Origin: an uncultured Opitutales bacterium | Lineage (GTDB): Bacteria > Verrucomicrobiota > Verrucomicrobiia > Opitutales > Seribacteraceae | Assembly (NCBI GenBank): GCA_943789375.1 | Contig: CALSTX010000007.1 | Location: forward strand, 17,696 to 81,695 | DNA: 64,000 nucleotides | Reading direction: 5' to 3' | Part shown: piece after piece, positions 8,201 to 34,042 of the stretch | Layout: every line of letters begins with the position of its first letter | How positions within the stretch are numbered: position 1 is the first letter of the stretch | Program-made: the position numbers and the translations under genes | The notes under the pieces: generated by a model | Told to the model about the DNA's origin: nothing | What the model saw: the letters and a program-made list of their open reading frames with translations, nothing else | Databases searched by the model: none

Positions 8201-9871
8201 AGGTTTTGTAAGGTTTCCCTCAGACCCTACGAAGCTAATGGATGCTGTGACTAACTCTTCGCGGATAGGATCGATGGGGGGGTTTGTTACCTGGGCAAAT
8301 AGTTGCTTAAAGTAATTGTAAAGAGATTGTGATTTGTCTGAAAGAACAGCGAGAGGTGAATCGTTGCCCATTGAACCTAAAGGTTGCTTGCCAACTTGGG
8401 CGCTTGGCCCAATCAAAAATCGTAAATCCTCAAATGTATAACCAAAAGATTTTTGTTTCGTAACAATAGAACTGAAATCGTCTTTCTTGTTGGTCTCCGG
8501 AAGAGGTAAAGTTGATGCATCTACAAGTGACTCTCTCAACCAATCACCGTAGGGTTCTTGTTGAGCAACAGATTCTTTGATCTCAGCGTCGTCTATTATT
8601 CGGCCCTGATTCATATCTATCATAAACATCCTACCTGGCTCTAATCTACCTTTTTTGACAACATCAGATGAATCAATAGAGGAAAGAACGCCCACTTCAG
8701 AAGCTAAAATTACTTTATCGTCTTTGGTAACATAATACCTTGATGGACGGAGCCCATTTCGGTCAAGGACTGCACCCACTTGTGTACCATCTGAAAATGC
8801 AATCGAAGCAGGACCATCCCAGGGTTCCATCACGCAAGCATGAAATTCGTAGAAATCCCTCTTGTATTGTGGCATGTCCTGATGTTTTTCCCATGGCTCA
8901 GGTATCATCATCATCATTGCGTGGGAAAGACTACGACCAGACAGGGTTAAAAATTCCAAGCAATTATCAAACTTTTGGGAATCTGAACCATCTTCTCTTA
9001 TAATCGGTAAAAGTTTTTTTACATCTTCACCAAAGGCATCGCTGGCCAACTGCATTTGACGAGCGTAGAGCCAATTCTCGTTACCTCGAACTGTATTGAT
9101 TTCTCCATTATGACAAAGGTACCTAAATGGTTGAGCTCTGTGCCAACTTGGAAAAGTATTCGTGGAAAATCTTGAGTGAGTTAGTGCAAGGGCAGATTCC
9201 ATTAATGGATTACTGAGATCCGGGAAATAATCTGAAAGTTGTTGAGTTGTAAGCATACCTTTGTATGTCATGGTCTTGGAAGAAAAAGAACTTACATGGA
9301 AGCTTACATCCGGATCATCTGAACTAAAACGTAAACGATGACTGATAATTCTCCGAACCAAATAAAGTTTCCTTTCAAAAGGTAAGCCGACATCAATGTG
9401 AGCTGGACGCTTAACAAAAAGTTGCTCCATTGTAGGCTCTGAGTCAGAAGAAGCCTTACCAAGTATGCTGCTTCTGACAGGTACAGTTCTCCACCCCAAT
9501 AATTCTATACCCTCCTCATTTAGGACTTCTGCAATGATGTTCTTTTCATGGGCATACAAGTCCTGATCTTTGGAAAGAAATATAAATGCCGCACCATAAT
9601 CTCCTGAAGAAGGAAGGCGCAGTGAAATTTCATCTGCACATGCTTGGGTAAGAAATTTGTGTGGGAGTTGTATAAATATGCCTGCACCGTCACCCGTTAT
9701 TGGATCGCAGCCACATCCACCTCGGTGGTCAAGATTCACACAGATTTCTAGTGCACCTTGGACTATGGAATGTGACTTACGGCCTTTAAGGTCGACAATT
9801 AGACCAATGCCACAATTTTCATGTTCTAGTGTAGGGTTGTAAAGTCCTTGTTCTTTAGGCGGTGTTTTCAT
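5266..9871 (-). CDS. gltB: Glutamate synthase large (alpha) subunit, split by a +1 frameshift near 7023-7027
   Basis: Ntn CGIG start, [38 protein letters not shown] then (other frame) [43 protein letters not shown]-terminal domain. Removing one G from the G5 run restores ASGRFGVTSYYL. Confidence 0.95.
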
Positions 9872-9879
9872 TTTAAAAT

Positions 9880-9908
9880 ATTATAGGCATTCGAAGTCTA
9901 AGAAACAA
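9880..9908 (-). promoter_or_regulatory. Putative sigma70-type promoter of the gltB operon
   Basis: On the minus strand TTGTTT-N17-TATAAT, ending 8 nt before the gltB ATG. Confidence 0.5.
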
Positions 9909-9956
9909 ACGAGGAATTCAAACATTTTGTTCTATGACATTATTCGGTCAAGGCTA

Positions 9957-10598
9957 TTAGCACAGTTTAAGAGGTAACTTTCTTTTTAAGTTAGCAAACA
10001 GTGGAGGTGAAAAGGAAAATGTTTTTTTTGTTAAAACTAAATTTCCACATGAATAGTTAGAGTAAATCGGCAAATTACTTGAGCCTAAGGATGCGGTTTT
10101 ACGAAAGAAGTTAAAAAGGACTCTGATAACAAATCTAAAATAATATCCAGAGAGTGATCGACATTTCGGATTGTAAAAATCTATATTAAGCCAATGTCCA
10201 CTAACACATAAAAGTTTGGTGATTTTTAAAATACATAAATTGCAATCATTTTGAGAAAAGCAGTCCAAAAAAAAACTTGTACAAATTATGTCATAATAAA
10301 TACTAGCATTGAAATCGAAAAAGGATTCATTAATGATAGAAATATTATGATCACTTACATCTATGCACTTTATTTTCAATATTTCACACATTTTAGTAGA
10401 AGATTCTACGATAGTTATTTTACTGTCAGGAAAAGATTTGAAATAATTTAATAAATTTCCTGTTCCTTCGCCGATTAACAGAATGTTTTTACTTTTACTT
10501 TTATATAATAGTGATTCCCTAAAACATTGTAAATAATCTCCAAAAGAAATTTTTTCTAAAAAATTATAAAAGTTAGAAACTTTATCAAAATCATTCAT
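9957..10598 (-). CDS. Class I SAM-dependent methyltransferase
   Basis: ILLIGEGTGN motif I, ITIVESS acidic motif II, YDIICTSFFLDCF motif IV; TAATG stop/start coupling with the upstream gene. Confidence 0.8.
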   Translation of the reverse strand: MNDFDKVSNFYNFLEKISFGDYLQCFRESLLYKSKSKNILLIGEGTGNLLNYFKSFPDSKITIVESSTKMCEILKIKCIDVSDHNISIINESFFDFNASIYYDIICTSFFLDCFSQNDCNLCILKITKLLCVSGHWLNIDFYNPKCRSLSGYYFRFVIRVLFNFFRKTASLGSSNLPIYSNYSCGNLVLTKKTFSFSPPLFANLKRKLPLKLC

Positions 10599-21005: not shown

Positions 21006-21898
21006 TCAAGGCAAGTATTCCGATACATGCTGATATTGTTGATCAGATAGAAAACAATTTGCATGAAATTGCTCCATCTAAATGGATTATTTCACAAAGC
21101 CAAATAACCTTAAAAGCAAGACTTGAAGGGTACTTTGAAAACAACACAACTATCGATGAAATTAATGCTGAGATTAATTCATTTTTTTCAGACGAACTGT
21201 GTGAAAACAACAAACTAGAAGTCCTACAAATTAAGGATACAGATTGGACTGAATCCTATAAAATCCACTTTAAGCCCTGGAATCATAAAGGGTTTCATTG
21301 GATTCCAATATGGCTAGTTAATGAGTATTTAGTTCCCCAGGGAGATAAATATCTTCTTTTAGATCCAGGCATGGCTTTTGGTACAGGCAATCATGAAACT
21401 ACTAAACTTTGCTTAGAAGAAATAGTTGAGATGAATATAGTTCACTCTTCCAAACAAAAGGTACTAGACATAGGTTGCGGTTCTGGAATCTTAGCGATTA
21501 CTGCCGCTAAATTAGGATACCTTAACATTCTCGGCATTGATAATGATGAAGATGCTGTGAGAATATCAGAAGAAAATGCAATTCTTAACCAAGTGGAACA
21601 ACATATCCGTTTTATGAATCAAGGAATTGAATTGATTGAAGCAGACTCCAACTATGATCTAGTTGTAGCTAATATACAGTCAGATATTCTGATAGAAAAC
21701 AAAAATTCGATAATTGATACGACAAAAGCAGTATCAACACTGTTGCTATCAGGTGTCCTAGCAGTGGAAGCCAAAAATGTTGAAATGGTGTACTCTGAAG
21801 AATTTAACAGAAGAAAATACAACTATAAATCAGTGATAAAGACAGACGGAGAATGGAGTTTAATTCGATTCTCAATTTTGGAACCAAGAGAACTTTAG
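21002..21898 (+). CDS. prmA: Ribosomal protein L11 methyltransferase
   Basis: DWTESYK, LDPGMAFGTGNHETT, LDIGCGSGILAI, VVANI, LSGVL. Confidence 0.95.
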   Translation: MIKASIPIHADIVDQIENNLHEIAPSKWIISQSQITLKARLEGYFENNTTIDEINAEINSFFSDELCENNKLEVLQIKDTDWTESYKIHFKPWNHKGFHWIPIWLVNEYLVPQGDKYLLLDPGMAFGTGNHETTKLCLEEIVEMNIVHSSKQKVLDIGCGSGILAITAAKLGYLNILGIDNDEDAVRISEENAILNQVEQHIRFMNQGIELIEADSNYDLVVANIQSDILIENKNSIIDTTKAVSTLLLSGVLAVEAKNVEMVYSEEFNRRKYNYKSVIKTDGEWSLIRFSILEPREL

Positions 21899-23019
21899 CC
21901 CCCTAGATAAGTAAGAGCTTTGGGAATAGGTAATGTGTAAAAAGCAAATTGTGCAATTCCAAGGGAAGATATTTTTTTTGATACAGTATCTCTTAATGAC
22001 TCAACACTATCTGGTCCGACTGAAGTATAGACTAGAGCCCATTCTTCATTTTGTTGCTGCTCAGTATCAGCGGACTCAGCATCTATCATAACACCAAAGT
22101 TTGTACTCACACCCGGTGCACCCGTTTCTAAAATAGAATCATAAACTTCATCATAATGGTCGCGGGGTACTATACAATAGAGTCCTACTAAATCATTCAA
22201 AAAAGTGGATTTAAGAGATTTAGATTTAGATAAATCAGGCATTGCTCGCCAATCTTTACCTCCTTTTAAATCGTCTAAAGCGGAAATGACTTGTTCCATG
22301 TTAGCACCATGTGTTGAAGATGAAACCGTACTTGAAACATTGATAAGACCGGAGTGAACTGGAATTGAATACATAAAGCCACGACCCGGTTCCGTGATTC
22401 TTCCTGCCCGTGCCATATTACTGAAAACATCATCTGCTTCAGATTTATCTACCACACACCAAACAAATTCTTTTTCAGGCCCTTTAGTTATACGAAGCAT
22501 TGGGATTTTATCTCGTACGCCACCACCTTCTCCAAAAGTAACAGTTGGACCAGGAGCACCACTTTGAAGCGCTGCCTTTGCAATGTCATCAGCAATACCT
22601 TTTTCGCAAATGCAACATATTGCCTCTAAACTGGCTGCACTTTGGTTGTCTTCACTATTATTAGCATCGGATGAAATATTAGTTGGGAAGGATTTTGATA
22701 CCTGAGCATCATTACAACTCATACTAAAAACAGCCCCAGAACCGACTTTATCTAAATTTCCTGATTTAATAGCAGCTTCAGTAACTTGATTGATAATGTC
22801 GTCTGGAACAAGTGCCTGTAAAAGTAATTGCTCAGGAGCGGGTGGCGGAAACATTCTTTGAAGAAACCCACCTTCATTAAGTACAGAACCACGGGCGGAT
22901 ATTTGAAAAACCCCTTTCGCACCAGCTTTAGACACTGCATTAGAAACGCGTACAACTGATTCTTTCGGAAGAATTAAGTTTAGAAGGGAAACTCCTGATG
23001 ATTTTACTAAGTCGGTCAT
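21895..23019 (-). CDS. PII-like protein with three tandem PII-like domains
   Basis: Three approximately 95-aa units, each with a GA-x-G strand turn (AGAKGV, SGAPGP, TGAPGV); B-loop-like GSGAVF and GRGFMY in units 1 and 2; immediately downstream of the DUF1538 gene. Confidence 0.75.
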   Translation of the reverse strand: MTDLVKSSGVSLLNLILPKESVVRVSNAVSKAGAKGVFQISARGSVLNEGGFLQRMFPPPAPEQLLLQALVPDDIINQVTEAAIKSGNLDKVGSGAVFSMSCNDAQVSKSFPTNISSDANNSEDNQSAASLEAICCICEKGIADDIAKAALQSGAPGPTVTFGEGGGVRDKIPMLRITKGPEKEFVWCVVDKSEADDVFSNMARAGRITEPGRGFMYSIPVHSGLINVSSTVSSSTHGANMEQVISALDDLKGGKDWRAMPDLSKSKSLKSTFLNDLVGLYCIVPRDHYDEVYDSILETGAPGVSTNFGVMIDAESADTEQQQNEEWALVYTSVGPDSVESLRDTVSKKISSLGIAQFAFYTLPIPKALTYLGG

Positions 23020-23021
23020 GA

Positions 23022-25190
23022 TTATGCTTTCTCCATTTCTAATTCTGTTGCGTCATCCACTTTCGGTTTTTTTCGGACAAGTAGACCAACTGTGAGGACT
23101 GTAATGATAGGTCCAACTGAAGCCAGTGAAAGAACACCAAAACCATCAATAGCTCCAGTCTTGGCTCCAATACCTAGGCCCATAGCAAGCACAAGAGGCA
23201 CCGTAATTGGTCCTGTTGTAACACCCGCACTGTCCCATCCAAAGTTTACAAAATCTTCACTTGAAAAGAAGGTTAAAACCAAAAGAAAAGCATAGGGTGG
23301 TATCAACAAGTACCAAAGTTCTAAATTAAAAGCTATTTTGGCCACTCCAGTTGCAATTCCGCAAGCAACCCCTGTGGCAACAGCTTGCATCAATAAATTT
23401 TTCTTAAAAGCACCGACGGTTATTTTTTCTACAGTTGAACCAAGTGCATTTAATGCTGGTTCCGCCAAGGTTGCTCCATAGCCTAGAATGAAGCCAAAAA
23501 GAATCGCAAGACACTTCCCGGCAGTTGATGATTTGAAAAGAGGATCAACAAAACCTTCGCTTTGCCAAGGTTGAATCGATGTAAAACTAGAAACGACATT
23601 TCCGCCTAACTGTTCACCTAAGGGTGTTAAGCCTAAGGCTATTCCAAGATTAAAAAGACACATTCCAATGACGGCACAACCAATGCCTATAAATAATTCA
23701 TCTAAATATTTTGGTTTCTGCCTAAGTCCTCCCATCAACACAAGTAATAGTATTGAGCAAAGTGGCACAATGGCCCAAATCGCTCCCTCTAATGCTCCTC
23801 TATCTTGGTCAGGTCCATCAAGCTTACCATTTTTCTCATTATAATTGACGCTACCATCTTGATTGAACCCGTAAAAGTCTTCGCCAGGATCAAGGATTCC
23901 ATTACCGTTTTTATCTTCCTGTGGTTTGAAAGTGTTAGGGAAAAAATCGAAATTATTCGTAAAAGCGGTCGCAATATCCGAGCCTTCGTCCCAGACACCA
24001 TCGGGTGCTTTAAAACCCTCTCTAACGACATAAGCCTTTGCACCCTGCACCTCTACATTCTCACGTGAAACCTCATTGTCGCTTGACAGAAAACTTGGGA
24101 CAATTTTACCATCAGTTATTCTAGTTTTAATAGTGTAACCCTCAGGTAGCTTTTTATATTCCTGTAAGTATTTATCTACATTTTTTCTTTCATCTTGGGA
24201 TAAAGACCAAAATAAAGCATCTTCATCGACAGCTCCAGTAGCAGCCATTCTTTCAGCTGCTACAATGTCACCAAATTTCTGGTAGTCTTTGGGGTAATTT
24301 TTCCCGTAATCTCCAGCATTTAAATGCCATTCCGCCTTGGATAGCTTGGCCATGTAATAATTATCTCCATTAAATAAATAGAGGGCGTAACACATCACTG
24401 CTAGTATGGGAAATAAAGATGCTAAGGTAACAACACCAAAACCCGTGTTGCTGGAACCTCCCGTTGACACGATCCGACAAACTCCAATACCAAGCGCAAG
24501 AACTAAGGGTACTGTAACCGGGCCAGTCGTGACCGCACCGCAATCCCAAGCAAGGCCTAATACATGCCTAAGTCTATCGTCAGAAAACTGCATGTATAGG
24601 GTGATGCATGAAAGTACAATTACACCAACATATATAAATGGCTTCAGAGACCAACCTTTATAAAACCGTAAAACTCCAAGTAGAACAGCAATGCCAACAC
24701 CCACTCCAACACAATTGACAAGCATACCTGCTCCAGTGTTTAAAATAGTCCACAATAAAGGTGCAGCAGTTGGGTCCACACCGGAACCTGCAGCCCTAAG
24801 AACACCAATAGCTGGCTCTGCGAAAGTTGCAAAAGCTCCTAAAACGAAACCAAAAGCCAGACTTGCTGGTAAACAAGGAATTCCAAAAATCTTTTTTCTT
24901 GGTAGAGTAGATCCTAAAGTTTCCCCAAGAGGCATCAACCCAAGTCTGAGACCTTCCATGAAAAAAGCTAGTCCAACAATGACAATCATGATGCCTACTG
25001 CTATCATTAGAGAATAAACAATGGGTAATCCTAGGACCAGGACTTGGAAAACGATAAGGTATAGAATGATAAACCATACACATTGGATTTGTTCCACAAC
25101 CTTATCTTTCGAAAACGACAGCAAAATGCTAATCTTCTGTTTTAGAGTAAGTTGAAGTTTCTTTTGATCAGATGATTGTTGTGCCGTCAT
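23022..25190 (-). CDS. Fused tandem DUF1538 membrane protein (putative transporter)
   Basis: Duplicated motifs GLMPLGE/GLTPLGE, ATFAEPA/ATLAEPA, WDCGAVTTGPVTVP/WDSAGVTTGPITVP, GFGVVTLAS/GFGVLSLAS; about 190-aa soluble linker. Confidence 0.88.
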   Translation of the reverse strand: MTAQQSSDQKKLQLTLKQKISILLSFSKDKVVEQIQCVWFIILYLIVFQVLVLGLPIVYSLMIAVGIMIVIVGLAFFMEGLRLGLMPLGETLGSTLPRKKIFGIPCLPASLAFGFVLGAFATFAEPAIGVLRAAGSGVDPTAAPLLWTILNTGAGMLVNCVGVGVGIAVLLGVLRFYKGWSLKPFIYVGVIVLSCITLYMQFSDDRLRHVLGLAWDCGAVTTGPVTVPLVLALGIGVCRIVSTGGSSNTGFGVVTLASLFPILAVMCYALYLFNGDNYYMAKLSKAEWHLNAGDYGKNYPKDYQKFGDIVAAERMAATGAVDEDALFWSLSQDERKNVDKYLQEYKKLPEGYTIKTRITDGKIVPSFLSSDNEVSRENVEVQGAKAYVVREGFKAPDGVWDEGSDIATAFTNNFDFFPNTFKPQEDKNGNGILDPGEDFYGFNQDGSVNYNEKNGKLDGPDQDRGALEGAIWAIVPLCSILLLVLMGGLRQKPKYLDELFIGIGCAVIGMCLFNLGIALGLTPLGEQLGGNVVSSFTSIQPWQSEGFVDPLFKSSTAGKCLAILFGFILGYGATLAEPALNALGSTVEKITVGAFKKNLLMQAVATGVACGIATGVAKIAFNLELWYLLIPPYAFLLVLTFFSSEDFVNFGWDSAGVTTGPITVPLVLAMGLGIGAKTGAIDGFGVLSLASVGPIITVLTVGLLVRKKPKVDDATELEMEKA

Positions 25191-25275: not shown

Positions 25276-26478
25276 TCACATACTCCAAGATGCATTTGCG
25301 AGAGTCAAAGATACTTTGTTAACTCCTTGGTCTAAAACAATAGGAACATTCCATGTTACCCCAATTTTACCAAGAGCTGCAGTTCCTATTATAAAATAGT
25401 TACCCTTTTGGATCCCAGAAATAGACGCAGATCCGTTTATATCCGTTCTAACTCTTCTTCCATTTCCCTTCTCAACCTCGGAAAGTAATAATGTTCTAAT
25501 ATTCTTTTGGAGATTAGGATAGAGAAAAGAATTTTTTCTGGATTGAGCCCACAACTCTGAAAAGGATTCAAAAGATGAAAATTCAGACAGGTTGATATTA
25601 CCGGCTGAGAGAATCGCATTGAGGTTATTATTAATGACAAAAAACTCAGTGTAAAAAGCCTCTTTACTTTTTCCATTATAAGAGGTGACGACTGCATCAA
25701 AATTTAATGAACATGTACCTGTAAATAAACTCTTACTTGAGTTTTCATAATTCTGGGCAAACCGATTTTCCTCCAAATTAAGTTCCGGTTCTGCTAAAAA
25801 TATCTTTGTTTTAGGACTATTTTCAAGACTGGAAATTCGAGCTTCGAGGGAGTCATTTCGATACCTTAAATCTTTTATTTCATTCGATTTAAGAAATAGA
25901 CTATTTTTAAGGTTACTAATCTCTGAATGAAGTCCAGGAGCGACAACCTCTTCTGGAGAAATAAACTCGGAAGGAGAAGAGACAATTTTGGTTTCTCTTG
26001 CAGGTAATCCCTTCAATCGACGCACTTCAGCAAGCAGTTCGTCATTAATTGAAGAAAGTGATGCTATAGTTGTATCTTTGTTCGCATTAATTTTCCTCAA
26101 TTCCTCAATACTTCTTTGGTGTTCAATTGTTGATTCCTCTAGGTTTTGTAAGGCAACCTCGGCTTCAGTATTGGCAACTGTATCGAGGACTCTTCCGGCA
26201 TCAATGCCTGGGGAACTCACTGGAAGTGGAGTGGTAAAGCTAGGTTCAGCCCCTTCTACAACTAAAGATATAGACTTGTTGCTATCGTTTAAAAGATCCT
26301 CAAGATCGCTAACATTGTCAGGAGAAGACAGTAAAAGGTTTGTTACTTCACTATCGTTAGAACTTTCTTGTGTATTCTCCGTTTGAACTTGTTGCTCAGC
26401 AGTTCCGCAAGAGCAAATCGACATTACAAATACTAAAACAACGCAAGTAAACAAAGAATCTTTAAGCTTTTGGGACAT
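25276..26478 (-). CDS. Putative lipoprotein with central coiled coils, function unknown
   Basis: Basic-hydrophobic N-terminus ending in ICSC lipobox-like Cys; heptad-rich segments; beta-rich C-terminus (RTDINGSASISGIQKGNYFII). Confidence 0.65.
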   Translation of the reverse strand: MSQKLKDSLFTCVVLVFVMSICSCGTAEQQVQTENTQESSNDSEVTNLLLSSPDNVSDLEDLLNDSNKSISLVVEGAEPSFTTPLPVSSPGIDAGRVLDTVANTEAEVALQNLEESTIEHQRSIEELRKINANKDTTIASLSSINDELLAEVRRLKGLPARETKIVSSPSEFISPEEVVAPGLHSEISNLKNSLFLKSNEIKDLRYRNDSLEARISSLENSPKTKIFLAEPELNLEENRFAQNYENSSKSLFTGTCSLNFDAVVTSYNGKSKEAFYTEFFVINNNLNAILSAGNINLSEFSSFESFSELWAQSRKNSFLYPNLQKNIRTLLLSEVEKGNGRRVRTDINGSASISGIQKGNYFIIGTAALGKIGVTWNVPIVLDQGVNKVSLTLANASWSM

Positions 26479-26581
26479 AACAACTCATTACCAAAATATG
26501 TGTTCAATTCTTTGCAAGCACAATAATAGCGACGCTCAACTTGTTATTTACAAAATATTTATTTATGAAATATTGTTAGTA

Positions 26582-28948
26582 ATGCCTCAGCATACCCGAG
26601 AAGAGACTGATTTACTCAACCATGAGAATCGTTTTCTAAAGCAAACAATTCTATCTTTAAGAGATGAGCTGATTAAAAAAGAGATTGAATCCGAGGATTT
26701 GGTTCAAACTAAAGAAAATGAACTTCAATTGGAGATCAACTCCTTAAAGACTTCTATTGAACAGCAAAGGAGTGATTTAGACCAAAAAATTATAGCTCAT
26801 GACAATGAAAATCAAAATGTTCTTCAGAAATCCATAAATGAACAAAAGGAATTTAAAAAAATTATTCTAGATTTAAGGACTTCATTAGAAAAAAAATCTC
26901 TCGTCACAGATCAACAAAAACAGCAGTTAGCCTCCGTATTCAATCTAGAACTAAGCAGCTTGAAGAAACAGGTCGAGGTACTAAGGGAAGCGCTGGATAA
27001 AAGTCAGTTAGAAATTCAAGAGGTCGGACAACTTGCCACCAGGGGTGCTTCTAATGAAATCTCTGAACTCAAAAAATCTATACTCAATCTACGACAAAAA
27101 ATCGAAGGTTTGAATAATTTAAATGATCAAAAAATCCAAAAGATTAAAGCAGGTACAGAAATTGAGGCTAGAGGACTAAGAGCAACGATCACAAACCTTA
27201 GAAATCAATTAGAAAAACTCGAAAGCTCAAGGGATGATGCGGTTCAGAAGGCAATTTCAAGCAAATCGGCAGAGATATCTTCTCTTAAATTATCAATTTC
27301 TAATACTCGGGAAAAGCTAGCCAAGATAAAGGAAGAGGAGGAGGACAAAGCACAAACAAAATTTTCTACTTACAACCTAGAAATTAAAAACCTTAAGGAT
27401 ACTATCACAAGCATTCGCAATGAACTAGAAAACCAGAAAAATAAAGAAGCAGAAATTACTCAATCAGCGAAAAAAGAGGCATACGACGAAATTAAGCAAC
27501 TTAAGCAAACTCTCTCAAAGACTCGTGATAATCTCGAGCTTCAAAAGAATTTGGAAGATGATCGCATACAGAAAGTCAAAGCTAATGCTGAAATTGAAAT
27601 TACTGTATTAAAGAATTCAATCCAAGAACTCAGAGAAGAACTTGATAATTGCTCTTTTGATAAAAATACTGCGATTCAAAAGGTAGAAAATGGATACCGC
27701 TCTGAAATTTCGCTATTAAAACAATCTTTGTCAATAGCCCGTGATAATTTAGAAGACTTAAAAGCAAGAGAAGAAGATAAAATACAAAGAGCAATCTCGT
27801 CGATAAATAGCCAAAACAAAACATTTCAAAATACAATCATCGGATTAAGAGAAGAACTTGAAAAAGAATCATCTGATAAAGAGGACATGATTCAAAAGTA
27901 TCAATCTGCAACCAATCGGGAAATCCAGCAACTTAAATTTTCACTTGGAAAAACTCGTGAATCACTTGACCAGCAAAAAGCTAAGTACGAGGATAGAGTC
28001 CAAAAGGTCAAGGCTTCGAAAGAAAATGAAATTCATACCTTAAAAGGTTTAGCCCAAAGCTTACGAGATGAATTAGAACACTCTCAAGTTGTGACTGACG
28101 ATTTAGTTCAGAAGAGTAAAAGTGAATCTCAATCAGAAATAAATCAGCTGAAATCGTCTCTTCACAGAATGCGGGATCAGCTTCAAAAGGTTAAGGAATA
28201 CGAGGCGGAAAAACATCAAATGTCACAAGCCCAAAATGAAAGAGAAAATACGAGTCTTAAAAGCACTATTTCAACATTGAGAACAAAACTCGATGAAACC
28301 GAATTTAAATTTCAAGATTCAATACAAAAAGCAGAAGCCAGTTCAAATGCTCAACAAGTTGCACTCAAAAAAAGTCTGTTACAAACACGAGAAAAAATGG
28401 ACAGGCTTCAAAATGATAAAGAAGTAGAGGTGCAAAATGCGGTCTCTAAGCAAGAATCTACAATCCAACAATTGCAAAACAGTATATCTCAATTAAGAGA
28501 AGAAATAGAATTACAGAAAAGTCAGAATGAAGAAGCTACCCAAAAATCTATTTCGATTCATTTGACCGATAATTCACAATTGAAGAAATCAATCTTAGAT
28601 TTACGAAATAAACTTGAAAAAATTAAAATTTCGAAAGAAGAAGCGTTACAAAAATTGAGATTTGAAAGAGAAAATGAAATCAAAGCTTTGCAAGAAAATT
28701 TAACCCAACTTCGATTGGATTTGGAAGGTTCCGAAATCAATAAACAGGAAGCAGTACAAAATGTTGTGAGCTCAAATCAAAATGAAATTAACCACTTTCG
28801 TAGAATGGTATCCAATCTTCGCGATGAGCTTGAACAAAACAAAGCAAGATACGAACAAGCAAAGCAAGATGATCTGCAAAAAAAAGAATCGGAAATGTTG
28901 CAGTTACAGTCGACTATAATTGATTTACGAACTAAACTAGAAAATTAA
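26582..28948 (+). CDS. 788-aa helical protein built of exact 36-residue repeats
   Basis: Probable start ATG 26582 (MPQHTREE); 14-aa leader + 21 x 36 aa + 18-aa partial repeat; no TM segment or signal peptide. Confidence 0.9.
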   Translation: MPQHTREETDLLNHENRFLKQTILSLRDELIKKEIESEDLVQTKENELQLEINSLKTSIEQQRSDLDQKIIAHDNENQNVLQKSINEQKEFKKIILDLRTSLEKKSLVTDQQKQQLASVFNLELSSLKKQVEVLREALDKSQLEIQEVGQLATRGASNEISELKKSILNLRQKIEGLNNLNDQKIQKIKAGTEIEARGLRATITNLRNQLEKLESSRDDAVQKAISSKSAEISSLKLSISNTREKLAKIKEEEEDKAQTKFSTYNLEIKNLKDTITSIRNELENQKNKEAEITQSAKKEAYDEIKQLKQTLSKTRDNLELQKNLEDDRIQKVKANAEIEITVLKNSIQELREELDNCSFDKNTAIQKVENGYRSEISLLKQSLSIARDNLEDLKAREEDKIQRAISSINSQNKTFQNTIIGLREELEKESSDKEDMIQKYQSATNREIQQLKFSLGKTRESLDQQKAKYEDRVQKVKASKENEIHTLKGLAQSLRDELEHSQVVTDDLVQKSKSESQSEINQLKSSLHRMRDQLQKVKEYEAEKHQMSQAQNERENTSLKSTISTLRTKLDETEFKFQDSIQKAEASSNAQQVALKKSLLQTREKMDRLQNDKEVEVQNAVSKQESTIQQLQNSISQLREEIELQKSQNEEATQKSISIHLTDNSQLKKSILDLRNKLEKIKISKEEALQKLRFERENEIKALQENLTQLRLDLEGSEINKQEAVQNVVSSNQNEINHFRRMVSNLRDELEQNKARYEQAKQDDLQKKESEMLQLQSTIIDLRTKLEN
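26624..28945 (+). repeat. Degenerate 108-bp (36-codon) tandem repeat array, 21.5 units
   Basis: Consensus E-I-x-x-L-K-x-S/T-I/L-x-x-L/T-R-x-x-L-E...Q; the repeat is clear at protein level and divergent at DNA level. Confidence 0.9.
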
Positions 28949-28949
28949 C

Positions 28950-31214
28950 ATGGCAGATAAAAAAGATACCAAATCCAAAAGAACATCCAGGTTCGCTGAA
29001 ATGCTTTTGCAGGTTACTAATGATCTAGCAAAAACTAAATCCCTTGATGAAGCTCTTGAAGTGTTAGTTAAAATAACCACTTCAACCATCGGTGCAGAAA
29101 GAGGAACAATTTTTCTCAATGATGCCTCCACCGGTGAGCTATACTCTCGAATTGCCCAAGGAAATTTCAGGCGTGAAATAAGAATCCTAAACACAAAAGG
29201 CGTGGCAGGATGGGTCTTTACCCAAGATGAGGGTGTCATCATTCATGACGCCTACAAAGATGAAAGGTTTAATAAAGCTGTTGATGTGAGAACAGGGTTT
29301 CGAACCAAAAGCATCCTTTGTGCCCCCCTAAGAACGGTGTCGGGGGAAGAAATTGGCGTATCTCAGATACTAAACAAGATAGACGGTGAGTTTGAGCAAG
29401 AGGACCTCGACTTACTTGAGGCAATGACTGAACAAGCTGCTATTGCTATTCAGGGAAATATAATCGTTGAGCAAATTGAGGCAGCAAGAAAACAAGAGTT
29501 GGAATTCCTGGATGTCGTATCTCAAGTTTCGTCCGAGCTAGAACTTACTCCCCTCTTGCAGAAAATCATCACCACAATCTCTACAATGTTAGATTGTGAA
29601 AGAGCTACTCTTTTTATCAATGATGAAAAAACAAATGAATTATATACAGAAGTAGGCGAAGGACTTGATGAAAAATCTGTAATCAAATTCCCCAACCACC
29701 TTGGCATAGCAGGAACCGTTTTTACTTCTGGAAAACCCGTAAATATTCCTCATGCTTATGCGGATCTCAGGTTCAATCCTAGTTTTGATAAACAAACTGG
29801 GTTTTTCACCAGATCAATTTTGTGCATGCCGGTATTTAATAAGGAAGGCAAAACCATTGGAGTTAGCCAAGTTCTTAATAAAAGAGGTGGTTCCTTTAAC
29901 GCAGAAGATGAAAAAAGGTTAGCAGCTTTTACATCTCAAATTTCAATGGGTATCGAGAATGCAAAATTATTCGACGATGTTCAAAACCAAAAAAATTATT
30001 CTGAGAGTATTTTATCTAGTATGCATGATGCTGTTCTCACTCTAGATGAAACCGGAATTATCAGAACCTGTAATACGGCTGGTCTTCGTATTCTAAAATC
30101 TCCCATATTGAGCGATATTTTGGGAAAAAAAGCTTCGGATGTGTTAACTGAATCAAATTCATGGTTACTTCAAAAACTGGATTCTATGGAGGAACAGGAA
30201 GACTTTTTAGATGCTGAAATTAAAATTGAAGATGAAACACTTTCGGTGAATGTGTCAGTGATGCCACTCGTAGGTCAAAAGAAAGAAAGCCTCGGTGTGA
30301 TGCTTATGATTGAAGATATTAGTTCGGAAAAAAGAATGAAATCTACGATGTCTAGATATATGGACCCAGAATTGGCGGATCAGCTAATGATGGGTGGAGA
30401 TGGGAATGACATCATGGGGGGCAAGCAAAGTGTAGGAACCGTCCTATTTTCCGATGTTAGAAGTTTCACCACCATTACAGAAGAACTTGGTGCTCAAGGA
30501 ACAGTCAAGCTATTGAACGAATACTTTACAATTATGGTGGATTGTATAACGGATGAAGGGGGCATGCTTGATAAATTTATTGGCGATGCGATGATGTGTA
30601 TTTTTGGAACACCCGTTCCTCATGATGACGATCCTGACCGTGCTGTAAGAGCTGCTATCAGAATGATGACAGACTTAATTGTTTTTAATGACAAACGAGC
30701 AACCGAAGGAAAAATGCCCATTGATCACGGTATGGGTATAAACACCGACTCTATCGTTTCTGGAAATATCGGTTCGCCAAAAAGAATGGACTACACTGTC
30801 ATTGGAGATGGGGTTAACTTAGCAGCTCGTATTGAAAGTGCATGTAAACAATACGGAGCTCATATCCTGATAAGTGAGTTTACGCAAAAAGCTGTAAAAG
30901 CCACCTACAGAACCCGCCAAGTCGATTATATGATCGTGAAGGGAAAAACTGTTCCCGTTGGTGTCTACGAGGTCTTGGACTTTCATGACGATAAATCTTA
31001 CCCTAACCTAGCGGACGCCCTTGGGGTATTCAACGAAGGCTACAGATCCTGGACAGATGGCAAATGGGATCAAGCCATAAAATTATTCAAAAATGTTCAG
31101 AAAATAAACCCTGCGGATAAAGCCGCTCAACTTTATTTGGATCGTTGTGCTCACATGAAGAAGAATCCACCAAAAGGCGATTGGTCTGGTGTTTGGGTGA
31201 TGACAACTAAGTAA
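28950..31214 (+). CDS. GAF-GAF-PAS-class III adenylate cyclase-TPR protein (CyaB-like architecture)
   Basis: Two GAF domains with NK...F...D(E) motifs (LNKIDGEFEQED, LNKRGGSFNAEDE); PAS; catalytic FSDVRSFT, DKFIGDA, MDYTVIGDGVNLAARIES; C-terminal TPR-like helices. Confidence 0.92.
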   Translation: MADKKDTKSKRTSRFAEMLLQVTNDLAKTKSLDEALEVLVKITTSTIGAERGTIFLNDASTGELYSRIAQGNFRREIRILNTKGVAGWVFTQDEGVIIHDAYKDERFNKAVDVRTGFRTKSILCAPLRTVSGEEIGVSQILNKIDGEFEQEDLDLLEAMTEQAAIAIQGNIIVEQIEAARKQELEFLDVVSQVSSELELTPLLQKIITTISTMLDCERATLFINDEKTNELYTEVGEGLDEKSVIKFPNHLGIAGTVFTSGKPVNIPHAYADLRFNPSFDKQTGFFTRSILCMPVFNKEGKTIGVSQVLNKRGGSFNAEDEKRLAAFTSQISMGIENAKLFDDVQNQKNYSESILSSMHDAVLTLDETGIIRTCNTAGLRILKSPILSDILGKKASDVLTESNSWLLQKLDSMEEQEDFLDAEIKIEDETLSVNVSVMPLVGQKKESLGVMLMIEDISSEKRMKSTMSRYMDPELADQLMMGGDGNDIMGGKQSVGTVLFSDVRSFTTITEELGAQGTVKLLNEYFTIMVDCITDEGGMLDKFIGDAMMCIFGTPVPHDDDPDRAVRAAIRMMTDLIVFNDKRATEGKMPIDHGMGINTDSIVSGNIGSPKRMDYTVIGDGVNLAARIESACKQYGAHILISEFTQKAVKATYRTRQVDYMIVKGKTVPVGVYEVLDFHDDKSYPNLADALGVFNEGYRSWTDGKWDQAIKLFKNVQKINPADKAAQLYLDRCAHMKKNPPKGDWSGVWVMTTK

Positions 31215-31225
31215 AACTAGCTGAA

Positions 31226-32743
31226 ATGAACCCAAGAACACATTTGGAGAGAGCGATTGATTTAGATCCCGATTATTCGGAAGCATACTTTGAACTTGGA
31301 CTTTTAAATAAACATGAAGGTAATGAACATGATGCACTCTCCTTATTTCAAAAGGCTGTTTCGCTGAATAAAAATTTTGCCGAGGCAGAATGTGAATTAG
31401 CCATTTCATTAATGAACTCAAATGATTTAGAAGAATCAAGAAATCATTTCCTCAATTCATTAGAGATAAACCCAAATTACGCGGATGCTTACTTTCATTA
31501 CGGGCAATTATTGACAAAGCTTAAAGATATAGAAGAAGCAAAAAATAACTTTGATAAAGTAACCGAAATTAATCAAAACTATGCTAAAGCATACTTTCAT
31601 AAAGCTAGATTACTTACTCATGCAGATGATTTTGAGTCTGCTAGGAAGAATTATGAAACGGCAATCGACATAGACGAAGAATTCACAGATGCTCATTATT
31701 ACATGGCAAAACTTCTGACTGGAGGAATCGCCACAGACAAAGAAGGTTCGATTATTGACCGAACAAATATACCGGCCGCTAAACATCACTTAAAGAAAGT
31801 CTTAAAATATAAGCCTGACAACTTTAAGGCCCTATACAACATTGCTAAAATTGATTACAAACAAGGAGAATTAAACTTAGCAAAAAAAAATCTTAATAAA
31901 GCAATAAAACTGAGTCCACAATATTGGAAAGCACAGTATTTGCTGGGAATGATTTATCTAAAAATTGGAGATATTAAAAACGCTGAAAAATACTTTCAGG
32001 CATCCATTATTAACAACGAAATTAACCCAAAATCCTACTTCCAAATTGGGAAAATATATTACTATCAGAATTCTTACAAAACTGCTGAAGGAAATCTTGC
32101 GAAATCAGTTGCCCATAAGGATGAAAATGCTGAAGCACACTATTATCTTGCTAAGATAAACAGCGAAAATGGTGATTCTACTTTGGCTAAGAAACATTTT
32201 TACAAGTCTCTTGAAATTGATCCTGAGTATGCAAATGCATACTATGAATTAGCACACCATTGTCTAAAAGTTAACGAAATTAATGAAGCAAAAATTCATT
32301 TTCAAAAAACGACCGATATTGATCAAAACTTTTCGAAAGCATATTATCATTTAGCAAAATCACTAAGAAACCCTTCAGAATTTGATCAAGCATTTCGCAA
32401 CTATGAAACTGCACTTGAAATTGATCCTGGCATGGAAGAATGTCACTACAATTTTGCTTGTTTATTAATTGAAGGTGAAAAATTAAAAAATGATGGAACT
32501 CTGGTTAAAGAACCAAATTTAACTCTAGCGGAAAAACATTTGAAGTTAGCCATCGAAGTAAACCCGAAATTTTTTAAAGCTTACTATAAAATTGGCAAAA
32601 TACAGAATACCCAAAAGAAATATTCTCAGGCACTAGAGCACTTTCAGAAAAGCATCCAGATTGAAAATGAGTTTGCAAAAGCTCATTACGAAATCGCACT
32701 ACTGCTTATCAAAAAAAAAGGTCAACTACTCACACAAAAATAA
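31226..32743 (+). CDS. Tetratricopeptide-repeat protein
   Basis: 13 complete TPR units in 34-aa register (two extended to 46 aa) plus partial units at both ends. Confidence 0.92.
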   Translation: MNPRTHLERAIDLDPDYSEAYFELGLLNKHEGNEHDALSLFQKAVSLNKNFAEAECELAISLMNSNDLEESRNHFLNSLEINPNYADAYFHYGQLLTKLKDIEEAKNNFDKVTEINQNYAKAYFHKARLLTHADDFESARKNYETAIDIDEEFTDAHYYMAKLLTGGIATDKEGSIIDRTNIPAAKHHLKKVLKYKPDNFKALYNIAKIDYKQGELNLAKKNLNKAIKLSPQYWKAQYLLGMIYLKIGDIKNAEKYFQASIINNEINPKSYFQIGKIYYYQNSYKTAEGNLAKSVAHKDENAEAHYYLAKINSENGDSTLAKKHFYKSLEIDPEYANAYYELAHHCLKVNEINEAKIHFQKTTDIDQNFSKAYYHLAKSLRNPSEFDQAFRNYETALEIDPGMEECHYNFACLLIEGEKLKNDGTLVKEPNLTLAEKHLKLAIEVNPKFFKAYYKIGKIQNTQKKYSQALEHFQKSIQIENEFAKAHYEIALLLIKKKGQLLTQK

Positions 32744-32767: not shown

Positions 32768-34042
32768 GTGTGTGATCAAGAAATTACTTATCATTTAGAA
32801 AGTGCGTTATCTTACGATCCACATAACCAAGAGATATTAAAACTATCATGCTTGTTCTATTTAGATAACGAAGATTTCAAAAAAGTAAGAAGTATTCTCC
32901 AGTGCTTTGAATCAGAAAGTGAAAGTGAATATGTTCTCTTTATAAAATCACTTCTTGCATTTAAGAAGAAAGAATACCAGGAAGCATCTCAGTGCATAGC
33001 GAAATGCATAAGGTTAAATCCATCCATAGAATACCTAACTAAAGGACAAGAAATTGAAAGCTATAATGGAGATACAGAAAATCTATCAACCTACCTCAAC
33101 CTGCTCGTAGAAAAGGACTCACAAAATGGTTGGCATTACTATGCACTCGCAAAGTTTCTCGATATAGAGTCAGAGTTCCAACGAATATTTTACTTAATTG
33201 AAACTAGTATTTCTCTCCTACACAAAGAGGAAAAGCCTCTCATCCTTAAGTACAATATCTTAATTGATTATAGTGATTTACTGAAGGAGACACCCTACTA
33301 TAAAACTGACATCCAAATATTTGATGATTTTGGCAAGTTGCTCGAAAAATATCCTCTTAATAACGATTTAAGTTTTTTCATTGCTAAAATTAACTATCAA
33401 AAGAAGAGATATGATGAAGCGATCGACATCCTAGAAAACAATGTTGAACCGATTAAGTCATTCAACTTACTCGGAGATTGTTATTTCAAAAAAAAGAATT
33501 TCAAAAAAGCATTAGAATATTTTAGTAAAACTAATCCTTCAGGAAATAATGCTTTTTTTCTGAGTAAAAAGAAAGGAATGTGTTCATTAAAACTTAATAA
33601 ACACTCTCATGCAAAAAAACACTTCCTAGAATGCTATGAACTATTTTATGATCTGCAAAGGAAGTATGATAATGATTATAAACGTTGTGTTTCAAAGAAT
33701 CAATTTGGCGAAGCAAAGAAATTTATTATTAAAAAAAATAAGGCAAAGTTATATATGTCGAATATATGCTTGGCTCTTCACAAATTCAAAACCTTACCAA
33801 TTCAAAAAGACTTTCTTCAACTGGCTTTAAATATAAATAATCAAAACAGCCACGCCCTTCTTGAAATGGGTTTGTTACACAAAGAGAATTGCACACAAGA
33901 GGCACTGGTTTATTTCCTAAAATCCGCACAATACGATTGGGATAATATGGAAGCACATAAACAACTCTCAGTTGCGTATAAAGAACTCGGCCAACTTCAA
34001 AACCATTTACTTCATAAAAAAATAATAGAGCAAGACAGTTGA
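32768..34042 (+). CDS. TPR-like helical repeat protein; in frame with the upstream TPR gene
   Basis: Degenerate TPR units (AKINYQKKRYDEAIDILE, LLGDCYFKKKNFKKALEYFSK, ALLEMGLL...ALVYFLKS); GTG start; separated from the previous ORF by a single TAA in the same frame. Confidence 0.75.
   Translation: MCDQEITYHLESALSYDPHNQEILKLSCLFYLDNEDFKKVRSILQCFESESESEYVLFIKSLLAFKKKEYQEASQCIAKCIRLNPSIEYLTKGQEIESYNGDTENLSTYLNLLVEKDSQNGWHYYALAKFLDIESEFQRIFYLIETSISLLHKEEKPLILKYNILIDYSDLLKETPYYKTDIQIFDDFGKLLEKYPLNNDLSFFIAKINYQKKRYDEAIDILENNVEPIKSFNLLGDCYFKKKNFKKALEYFSKTNPSGNNAFFLSKKKGMCSLKLNKHSHAKKHFLECYELFYDLQRKYDNDYKRCVSKNQFGEAKKFIIKKNKAKLYMSNICLALHKFKTLPIQKDFLQLALNINNQNSHALLEMGLLHKENCTQEALVYFLKSAQYDWDNMEAHKQLSVAYKELGQLQNHLLHKKIIEQDS

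What the first reader, a model, noticed from the sequence alone, without database searches (positions are those of the whole stretch)
26582..28948. 788-aa rod of 21 perfectly registered 36-residue repeats with invariant Arg13 and Gln28, coupled to an adenylate cyclase
Seen: after a 14-aa leader, 21 full repeats and one 18-aa partial follow with no indel. Arg at position 13 is present in all 22 units and Gln at 28 in all 21 full units, while other positions drift. Hydrophobic positions (about 2, 5, 9, 12, 16, 19/20, 23, 27, 30/31, 34) give 10 core layers per 36 residues. Central units alternate (S-L-x-x-T-R...EDK/R versus T-I-x-x-L-R-x-E-L), hinting at a 72-aa super-repeat. The stop lies 1 nt before the cyclase ATG. 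Established: 36/10 = 3.6 residues per turn implies an almost unsupercoiled coiled coil, unlike heptad 3.5; a continuous helix at 0.15 nm per residue would span about 118 nm. Inference: strict conservation of two polar residues suggests a repeated ligand, ion or partner-binding site, or polar core layers. The protein could be a filament or scaffold that positions or tunes the cyclase, with repeat number acting as a ruler.
Basis: partly seen in the sequence, partly recalled or inferred. Interest (0 to 1): 0.8.

Follow-up and report, generated by a model that had tools for sequence, protein, structure and literature searches.

The report
Giant coiled-coil partner of cAMP cyclase
This gene encodes a roughly 115-nm helical rod of 21.5 exact 36-residue units, a greatly lengthened member of an undescribed family of small helical proteins that sit directly in front of one conserved type of cAMP-making enzyme, so it is probably that enzyme's dedicated partner or scaffold.

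Summary
Window 26582-28948 (+) encodes 788 aa: a 14-aa leader, 21 units of 36 aa and an 18-aa half unit, with no indel. Arg13 is present in 22/22 units and Gln28 in 21/21. Hydrophobicity has a dominant period of exactly 3.600 residues, and there is no proline in 675 units from 31 orthologues. AlphaFold gives only very long unbroken helices.

The organism is an uncultured marine Opitutales genus (Verrucomicrobiota). About 30 orthologues at 33-80% identity keep the register perfectly. All internal length changes are 72 aa or 216 aa, giving 17.5, 21.5 or 23.5 units.

A 36-mer profile finds hundreds of short proteins (2.5-6 units, each ending in a half unit) in other, often high-GC, bacteria. In 8 of 8 contexts examined a GAF gene follows directly: an intact GAF-GAF-PAS cyclase in six, with stop and start overlapping in five. 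In 301 Verrucomicrobiota genomes the same five hold both genes and 296 hold neither.

The rod is therefore an expanded member of an unnamed family of cyclase partners. Physical association, oligomeric state and the role of Arg13/Gln28 are untested. No Pfam, NCBIfam, PDB or literature match was found. The scan has met this family before on other DNA (e1-4988563, e1-4998807, e1-4148742).

The parts
26582..28948 (+). Rod gene: 788 aa, 14-aa leader + 21 x 36 aa + 18-aa half unit, stop TAA
   Evidence: orthologues; dN/dS 0.10-0.12
26582..26623 (+). 14-aa leader (MPQHTREETDLLNH). Its length is invariant in all orthologues, and it resembles the '..L..AQ.' lead-in of the short family
26624..26677 (+). 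N-cap: first half of unit 1 (ENRFLKQTILSLRDELIK). One of the best conserved stretches (major-residue frequency 0.83), shared with short homologues that begin ENR[YH]LK
26624..28891 (+). 21 full 36-aa units (108 nt each): consensus E-I-x-x-L-K-x-[ST]-[IL]-x-x-L-R-x-E-L-[ED] followed by a charged stretch and x-[VI]-Q-K-A-x-S
27056..28351 (+). Units 5-16: the region of alternating unit types (72-aa super-repeat). The 72-aa and 216-aa indels between orthologues fall in this central region
28784..28945 (+). C-cap: unit 21 plus the terminal half unit. It is the most conserved part (0.74-0.83), and the C-terminal 3.5 units give the best match to the short-family profile (E 5e-27)
28946..28952 (+). 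Junction TAA-C-ATG: rod stop, one base, cyclase start. In relatives the two genes overlap by 4-25 nt or lie 5 nt apart
28950..31214 (+). Partner enzyme: 754-aa GAF-GAF-PAS class III cyclase with a TPR-like C-terminal tail (CyaB1/CyaB2-type order). It is 84-97% identical within the genus and 54-66% identical across partner-bearing loci from unrelated contexts
31226..32743 (+). Context only: 505-aa TPR protein 12 nt after the cyclase stop. Syntenic within the genus (52-88% identity) but not next to the pair in other lineages
25276..26478 (-). Context only: divergent 400-aa lipoprotein. Syntenic within the genus, fast-evolving and variable in length, and not part of the pair elsewhere

Best explanation
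The gene encodes a cytoplasmic, continuously alpha-helical coiled-coil rod. Each 36-residue unit is two heptads plus two hendecads (10 helical turns), so the hydrophobic seam runs almost straight. The roughly 774 helical residues would span about 115 nm. The protein is the greatly expanded form (21.5 units) of an undescribed family of small helical proteins (usually 2.5-4.5 units, always ending in a half unit). That family is encoded immediately upstream of, and translationally coupled to, one orthologous family of CyaB-type GAF-GAF-PAS adenylate cyclases. It most likely works as a dedicated, physically associated partner subunit of that cyclase. The conserved N-terminal and C-terminal units would carry the family-wide function (binding or regulating the cyclase, probably assembling as the cyclase is made). 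The alternating central units, added in 72-residue quanta in this marine Opitutales genus, would act as a rigid spacer or scaffold that sets distance or valency. Shown: repeat anatomy, helicity, family membership, gene pairing, co-occurrence and purifying selection. Inferred: oligomeric state (probably a parallel two-stranded coiled coil, from Ile at a, Leu at d and the E1-K6 g-e' pair), physical binding to the cyclase, and the spacer role.
For: Repeat anatomy is shown. AF2 gives three unbroken helices (6-209, 224-465, 515-787), with breaks only at low-confidence positions unrelated to the repeat. The short homologue P0162 is a single helix 2-149 at pLDDT 93.5. About 30 orthologues at 33-80% identity have no out-of-register indel, only 72- or 216-aa ones. 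Their cyclases are 84-97% identical. dN/dS is 0.10-0.12 for the rod and 0.016 for the cyclase. The 36-mer profile finds 880 proteins at E<1e-3 and 254 at E<1e-10 among 1.84 billion, with 3-6 units at exact 36 spacing. In 8 of 8 genomic contexts of short homologues with otherwise different neighbours a GAF gene follows directly. In six it is an intact ~760-790-aa GAF-GAF-PAS cyclase whose start overlaps the partner's stop or, once, lies 5 nt after it. In L055 the overlapping downstream gene is cut by the contig end and carries no Pfam call; L053 is a broken long-read contig with only a GAF fragment. Four more Verrucomicrobiota loci show the same pairing. In one sample of 301 Verrucomicrobiota genomes the same 5 carry both the partner and the orthologous cyclase, and 296 carry neither. 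The rod's C-terminal 3.5 units and its N-terminal unit match the ends of the short family, and they are the most conserved parts of the rod. No signal peptide is visible in the leader (sequence).
Against: No direct evidence of a physical interaction exists; no multimer prediction, expression data or experiment was available. Cyclase length (754-788 aa) does not scale with partner length (2.5 to 23.5 units), so a simple 'lies along the enzyme' model fails for the long forms. Tight translational coupling suggests roughly equal or lower cyclase output, which fits poorly with a 22-site scaffold. The monomer AF2 model folds the rod back on itself (pTM 0.22) and says nothing about the true assembly. 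Gene adjacency could reflect a regulatory link rather than a structural one.
Confidence: 0.62

Rival explanations
1. Pure regulator with a neutral middle. Only the terminal caps matter, acting as an inhibitor or activator of the cyclase in the way the elongated PDE6 gamma subunit regulates its GAF-containing enzyme. The 19 extra units would be tolerated expansion without a length-dependent function.
For: The caps are the most conserved parts and are shared with the 2.5-4.5-unit proteins. The middle evolves fast. Family members with very different unit numbers serve near-identical cyclases.
Against: The middle is under purifying selection (dN/dS about 0.1). It keeps R13 in essentially every unit and Q28 in about 95% of units across 31 proteins. 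It accepts no indel other than 72-aa multiples, and unit numbers are fixed within clades. Neutral filler would not behave so.
Confidence: 0.18
2. Cytoskeletal polymer. Staggered coiled-coil dimers assemble end to end into filaments, as proposed for crescentin, FilP and Scy, and the cyclase decorates or senses that filament.
For: The protein is a long non-heptad coiled coil, like Scy's 51-residue repeat (my knowledge, Walshaw et al. 2010). g15-e'20 charge pairs are repulsive in register (+0.10) but attractive with a one-unit stagger (-0.245), which would leave sticky ends. The alternating unit types fit the same picture.
Against: Most family members are only 2.5-4.5 units long, too short for typical filament formers. 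There are no head or tail domains. The stagger signal is small and rests on one pair type.
Confidence: 0.1
3. Surface-binding amphipathic helix. The straight 3.6-periodic hydrophobic stripe lies on a membrane or granule surface, as 11-mer repeats of apolipoproteins, perilipins and phasins do, tethering the cyclase there.
For: A non-supercoiling hydrophobic stripe is what 11/3 lipid-binding repeats have (established knowledge). One homologue carries an automatic 'phasin' label.
Against: The stripe is narrow and of the Ile-a/Leu-d zipper type, with an E1-K6 g-e' pair, which is typical of helix-helix packing. Half of each unit (19-26) is highly charged with no hydrophobic face. The labels are generic coiled-coil noise.
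Confidence: 0.05
4. Alpha-solenoid of 36-residue helical hairpins (TPR, Sel1 or PUF-like), in which Arg13 and Gln28 read a repeated ligand.
For: The 36-aa unit length equals that of Sel1 and PUF repeats, and there are two invariant polar residues per unit.
Against: There is no Pfam hit to any solenoid family. There is no proline and only 1% glycine in 675 units. AF2 shows helices running through 6-7 units without a turn, and a single 148-residue helix at pLDDT 93.5 in the short homologue.
Confidence: 0.02

Closest known systems
Anabaena CyaB1/CyaB2 adenylate cyclases (tandem GAF, PAS, class III catalytic domain, C-terminal TPR; GAF tandem PDB 1ykd)
   Same: The downstream enzyme has the same domain order. 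It matches the CyaB2 GAF tandem (1ykd, E 3e-34) and class III catalytic domains. It has a weak TPR-like C-terminal tail.
   Different: This is the partner enzyme, not the rod. No coiled-coil partner subunit is described for CyaB1/2 to my knowledge or in the papers searched. Whether the cyanobacterial genes have such a neighbour was not tested.
Scy and FilP of Streptomyces (bacterial coiled-coil cytoskeletal proteins with a 51-residue, 14-turn repeat)
   Same: They are long bacterial coiled coils built on a long, non-heptad period near 3.6 residues per turn, mixing heptads and hendecads (my knowledge; related paper PMC9858780 listed).
   Different: There is no sequence relationship (no Pfam Filament or DivIVA hit above cut-off). 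The period is 36/10, not 51/14. There are no head or tail domains. The gene is tied to a cyclase gene, not to polar growth genes.
Tropomyosin and nebulin (periodic rods that measure or decorate a lattice)
   Same: They are long helical proteins with a strict quasi-repeat whose number is conserved and whose period matches a partner lattice. Here the period is 36 aa, about 5.4 nm, or 72 aa, about 10.8 nm (geometry from established helix rise).
   Different: This is analogy only. No lattice partner is known here, and tropomyosin is heptad-based and supercoiled.
PDE6 gamma subunit (elongated regulatory subunit of a GAF-GAF enzyme)
   Same: It is a small dedicated accessory polypeptide for a tandem-GAF cyclic-nucleotide enzyme. 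The cyclase's GAF tandem matches the PDE5, PDE6 and PDE2 GAF domains.
   Different: PDE6 gamma is short and largely unstructured, not a repeat coiled coil. There is no homology.

Membership tests
Unnamed 36-residue-repeat partner family of GAF-GAF-PAS cyclases (defined here and in earlier scan notes) | Units of exactly 36 aa with the motif E-[IL]-x-x-L-[KR]-x-[ST]-[IV]-x-x-L-R-x-E-L-E and an invariant Arg at position 13 | tested here: met
   R13 in 22/22 units in the window. It is also invariant in the short homologues. The profile hits keep a spacing of exactly 36.
Unnamed 36-residue-repeat partner family of GAF-GAF-PAS cyclases | The protein ends within a half unit (n + 0.5 units) a few residues after the last L-R-x-x-L-E | tested here: met
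   Window: 21 units plus 18 aa. Orthologues have tails of 18-26 aa. Short members have 2.5, 3.5 or 4.5 units.
Unnamed 36-residue-repeat partner family of GAF-GAF-PAS cyclases | Encoded immediately upstream of an orthologous ~750-790-aa GAF-GAF-PAS class III cyclase, with stop and start overlapping or a few nt apart | tested here: met
   Window junction TAA-C-ATG. In 8 of 8 short-homologue contexts a GAF gene follows directly, an intact cyclase in six. Four of 4 phylum hits show the pairing. The same 5 of 301 genomes hold both genes. The cyclases are 54-66% identical.
Canonical heptad coiled coil (tropomyosin, myosin rod, SMC arms) | Hydrophobic period 7/2 = 3.5 residues; for SMC also ATPase head and hinge domains | tested here: not met
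   The dominant period is 3.600. The NCBIfam SMC_prok_B hit scores 25 bits against a cut-off of 567 and covers coiled-coil arm positions only.
Alpha-solenoid repeats of 34-38 aa (TPR, Sel1, PUF, PPR) | Each unit is a helix-turn-helix (or three-helix) hairpin and matches the family HMM | tested here: not met
   No Pfam match. No Pro and 1% Gly. AF2 helices cross 6-7 units unbroken.
Single alpha-helix (SAH) domain | An E/K/R-rich helix stabilised by i,i+4 salt bridges and lacking a hydrophobic seam | tested here: not met
   There is a strong seam: L5 99%, I/L/V9 91%, L16 97%, V/I27 79% hydrophobic. Only positions 19-26 look SAH-like.
Scy/FilP/crescentin-type bacterial intermediate-filament-like proteins | Filament formation in vitro or in vivo; rod domain with head and tail; 51-residue repeat for Scy | not testable with these tools
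   There is no sequence similarity. Filament formation needs an experiment.
CyaB1/CyaB2-type cyclase (for the downstream gene) | GAF-GAF-PAS-class III catalytic domain order with a C-terminal TPR-like tail; cAMP binding to the GAF tandem activates the enzyme | tested here: inconclusive
   The domain order is met (Pfam; PDB 1ykd and cyclase domains). The TPR_19 hit scores only 16.9 bits against a cut-off of 25. Ligand specificity and self-activation were not tested.

The most novel reading that the evidence does not exclude
The rod is a quantised molecular rack. A near-straight coiled coil presents one Arg13/Gln28-bearing docking face every 5.4 nm, organised in 10.8-nm (72-aa) super-units. It lines up many copies of a self-activating (cAMP-to-GAF feed-forward) cyclase into a linear array about 115 nm long. 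Unit number would then set the size and cooperativity of a switch-like cAMP burst. The short 2.5-4.5-unit partners in other bacteria would be the minimal version of the same device.
Probability: 0.1. Interest if true: 0.9.

Novelty: new variant of a known kind. Interest (0 to 1): 0.72.

Why it matters
Class III adenylate cyclases with tandem GAF domains are textbook self-contained signalling enzymes, and no dedicated structural partner is described for them. I found none in five literature searches. Here a helical protein family with no Pfam, NCBIfam or PDB match travels with one highly conserved cyclase family across unrelated bacteria, which makes a testable prediction of a two-subunit enzyme.

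The window's version is an extreme natural experiment. It has the same ends with 19 extra units inserted in 72-residue quanta, a strictly conserved phase, and a length of about a quarter of a small marine cell. For coiled-coil structural biology, the exact 36/10 period offers a long, almost unsupercoiled natural rod with a known repeat. The family-wide invariant Arg and near-invariant Gln still need a structural explanation.

The host genus is abundant in marine metagenomes: the best 120 cyclase clusters at 84-100% identity all appear to come from it. The system is therefore ecologically widespread.

Tried and rejected
- **Family libraries for the rod.** Pfam, NCBIfam, PADLOC and PHROGs gave nothing above cut-off. 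The only hits were SMC coiled-coil noise at 25 bits and phrog_5328 at 28 bits.
- **Solved structures.** A PDB sequence search with the protein and with the 36-mer profile gave nothing. Foldseek of the AF2 model against the PDB gave 0 hits.
- **Protein libraries.** The search for homologous proteins with the full rod found no hit, not even the rod itself. The exhaustive library also lacks full-length rods, although local hmmsearch scores them at 480-600 bits. The libraries seem to hold only fragments, so the absence of other long forms is weak evidence.
- **Weak Pfam labels.** DUF6779 and CCDC61_coil labels on short homologues are sub-threshold coiled-coil noise.
- **Solenoid reading.** Rejected.
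- **The 12-kb block as one system.** The idea that PII, DUF1538, the lipoprotein and the TPR genes belong with the pair is not supported outside the genus. Only the rod-cyclase pair recurs with different neighbours.
- **Promoters and terminators.** The scan gave nothing above the shuffled expectation.
- **Natural fusion.** I looked for a natural in-frame fusion of partner and cyclase to fold as one chain. None of the seven junctions examined is in frame (coordinates).
- **Literature.** Five searches found no description of the family.
Full report
**1. The observation**

The ORF list shows a + strand frame from 26498 to 28948.

Laid out in blocks of 36 after the 14-aa leader, the 788-aa product gives 21 full units and an 18-aa partial unit with no indel. 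Arg is present at position 13 in 22/22 units and Gln at position 28 in 21/21. At an Arg content of 6.6%, this phase-locked Arg has a chance probability of about 1e-26 (my arithmetic).

The stop TAA at 28946-28948 is followed by one base and then the ATG of a 754-aa GAF-GAF-PAS class III cyclase. Tandem Repeats Finder sees no 108-nt array, and the units are only 44% identical at DNA level. The array is therefore old and is not an assembly artefact.

**2. Anatomy of the unit**

I pooled 675 units from 31 full-length proteins.
- Clearly hydrophobic positions: 5 (99%), 16 (97%), 9 (91%), 12 (80%), 27 (79%) and 2 (73%).
- Position 30 is Ala or hydrophobic, and 31 is 44% hydrophobic.
- Positions 19-21 and 34 are weak (Ala/Ser).
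- Position 23 is Lys/Glu.

The unit is therefore two clean heptads (a-d-a-d-a at 2, 5, 9, 12, 16) followed by two hendecad-like stretches (16 to 27 to 38), the first of which is very charged.

The Fourier spectrum of hydrophobicity has its dominant peak at exactly 3.600 residues, the 10th harmonic of 36. There is no proline at all and only 1% glycine.

On a 100-degree-per-residue net, Arg13 lies about 60 degrees and Gln28 about 120 degrees from the centre of the seam. They sit on the same flank as K6 and E17, while E1, T/S8 and E15 lie on the other flank (my calculation). The heptad half has Ile at a, Leu at d, and a nearly universal E1(g)-K6(e') pair with a charge product of -0.78. This is the classical signature of a parallel two-stranded coiled coil, but that is an inference and not a result.

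**3. Structure prediction**

AlphaFold2 with a 30-orthologue alignment gives mean pLDDT 75. It shows three unbroken helices (6-209, 224-465, 515-787) folded back on each other. The only breaks are low-confidence segments that do not coincide with any feature of the repeat. This is the usual way a monomer prediction buries the seam of a long coiled coil.

A short family member (P0162, 151 aa) is predicted as one helix from residue 2 to 149 at pLDDT 93.5. Units are therefore not hairpins, and the solenoid reading (TPR, Sel1, PUF) is rejected.

With 0.148-0.15 nm rise per residue (established), about 774 helical residues span about 115 nm. If a relaxed helix has 3.63 residues per turn, a 3.6 period leaves roughly 0.8 degrees per residue of left-handed twist. 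That is about 30 degrees per unit, so the rod is nearly straight (inference).

**4. Orthologues**

The window lies in a 2.7-Mb genome of an uncultured marine Opitutales genus (record titles, including TMED40, TMED44 and 'Candidatus Seribacter sulfatis').
- The rod is found in 20 of 24 genomes of the genus and in none of 16 other families of the order when searched with the long protein.
- Across about 30 orthologues at 33-80% identity the leader is always 14 aa and the register is perfect. Arg13 is kept in essentially every unit and Gln28 in about 95% of units.
- Lengths fall into three classes: 788-796 aa (21.5 units), 861-867 aa (23.5 units) and 648 aa (17.5 units).
- In the 30-sequence alignment the only internal gaps are one 72-aa block and one 216-aa block, both central.
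- The divergent lipoprotein next door, at similar divergence, varies freely in length. Indel-free evolution is therefore not the default here.
- Orthologous units are 45% identical and paralogous units 29%, so there is no concerted evolution.
- The rod evolves much faster than its neighbour: 33-42% identity where the cyclase is 84-92% identical.
- It is still under purifying selection: dN/dS is 0.10-0.12 for the rod and 0.016 for the cyclase.
- The central units alternate between two types, matching the 72-aa indel quantum.

**5. A wider family**

A profile of 149 units was searched against 1.84 billion representative proteins. It gave 880 hits at E<1e-3 and 254 at E<1e-10. All listed hits are short (69-346 aa). 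Many come from high-GC organisms and carry 2-6 units at exact 36-residue spacing.

Complete members have a short lead-in ('..L..AQ.'), 2, 3 or 4 full units and then a half unit. This is the same plan as the rod.

Some start ENR[YH]LK like the rod. Their last 1.5 units share features with the rod's last 1.5 units, namely an aromatic or His pair at positions 23-24 followed by E-x-x-Q-L-x-x-T-I-x-x-L-R. The short-family profile matches the rod best over its C-terminal 3.5 units (E 5e-27) and also over its N-terminal units. Within the genus, the first half unit and the last 1.5 units are the most conserved parts.

The rod therefore looks like a short family member whose middle was expanded.

**6. 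The link to the cyclase**

I looked up the genomic context of eight short homologues chosen for contig length only.
- In six, a 760-788-aa GAF-GAF-PAS cyclase follows directly. Its start overlaps the partner's stop by 4-25 nt, or lies 5 nt after it in L054.
- In L055 a gene overlapping the partner's stop follows, but it is cut by the contig end after 723 aa and carries no Pfam call.
- L053 is a broken long-read contig that still shows a GAF fragment downstream.
- The other neighbours differ from case to case.

The six intact cyclases and the window's are 54-66% identical over about 750 residues, although the loci range from 38% to 71% G+C.

In a sample of 301 Verrucomicrobiota genomes (294 of them at least 90% complete), the short-family profile hits five genomes. 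The window's cyclase, at E<1e-60, hits exactly the same five, at 56-58% identity and adjacent to the partner. The other 296 have neither.

The pair thus behaves as one two-gene unit with a patchy distribution, compatible with transfer or repeated loss; this was not tested.

**7. Comparison with what is known**

- No curated family matches the rod or its short relatives.
- No solved structure matches by sequence or by fold.
- Five literature searches found nothing.
- The cyclase has the domain order of Anabaena CyaB1/CyaB2 and matches the CyaB2 GAF tandem (1ykd) and several class III catalytic domains.
- The nearest structural analogue of the rod is the long-period coiled coil of Streptomyces Scy and FilP (my knowledge), but there is no homology.

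The scan has met the family before in other genomes (e1-4988563, e1-4998807, e1-4148742). I reached the same reading from my own searches before seeing those notes, and I tested the pairing claim here.

New in this window are the extreme size, the quantised 72-aa length changes, the alternating unit types, and the cap-plus-spacer architecture.

**8. Mechanism**

The best-supported reading is a dedicated partner subunit of the cyclase. The tight coupling would favour assembly during translation, with the just-finished C-cap next to the emerging N-terminus of the cyclase (inference from established work on operon order and complex assembly).

Cyclase length does not change with partner length (754-788 aa for 2.5 to 23.5 units). 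The long middle is therefore better seen as a spacer or multivalent scaffold than as something that lies along one enzyme.

A small signal in the charge pattern hints that odd and even units pair with each other. The g15-e'20 pair is repulsive in register and attractive with a one-unit stagger. This is recorded as a lead only.

**9. Limits**

- No multimer prediction was available.
- Full-length rods are missing from both large protein libraries, although their fragments and neighbours are present. I cannot say whether comparably long forms exist outside this genus.

Noticed in passing
window 25276-26478 (-): Divergently transcribed 400-aa lipoprotein (lipobox ...ICSCG) with a central coiled-coil stretch and a beta-rich C-terminal end (...WNVPIVL..G.NK[IV]SLTLAN.SWS[LM]). 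It has no Pfam family. It is syntenic in the whole genus, evolves as fast as the rod (36-82% identity), and varies in length, unlike the rod.
   Followed up: partly
window 31226-32743 and 32768-34042 (+): Two TPR proteins follow the cyclase, the first only 12 nt after its stop. The first is conserved in the genus (52-88% identity). The second is barely recognisable outside the closest relatives. Neither accompanies the partner-cyclase pair in other lineages.
   Followed up: partly
window 21895-25190 (-): A PII-like 374-aa protein and a 722-aa double DUF1538 membrane protein lie next to the block. They are well conserved in the genus (69-96% and 59-96% identity) but absent from the neighbourhood of the pair elsewhere.
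   Followed up: partly
window 26582-28948; protein libraries: Full-length rods are absent from both large protein libraries; not even the query itself is returned. Fragments (for example P0072) and the adjacent cyclases are present in hundreds of clusters. Local hmmsearch scores the rods at 480-600 bits, so HMMER filtering is not the cause.
   Followed up: partly
window 27056-28351 (units 5-16): Odd units carry K/N/Q15 and K20, and even units carry E15 (90%). The g15-e'20 charge product is +0.10 in register and -0.245 with a one-unit stagger, a hint of staggered or odd-with-even pairing.
   Followed up: partly
window 26547-26576: The only promoter-like match in the 103-nt divergent intergenic region ends 6-8 nt before the rod's ATG, which would give a nearly leaderless mRNA. 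The scan as a whole is not above shuffled expectation.
   Followed up: no
L046 1479-2354 (context of short homologue P0009): A metallo-beta-lactamase-fold gene with a weak Anti-Pycsar Apyc1 hit lies divergently upstream of one partner-cyclase pair. It is probably coincidental and was not seen in the other contexts.
   Followed up: no
L047/L056 (Rokubacteria-type loci), about 8821-10248 and 6662-8089: In two related high-GC contexts a sigma-54 activator with a receiver domain lies convergently just after the cyclase, and a UbiE-type methyltransferase lies upstream. This is local synteny in that lineage.
   Followed up: no
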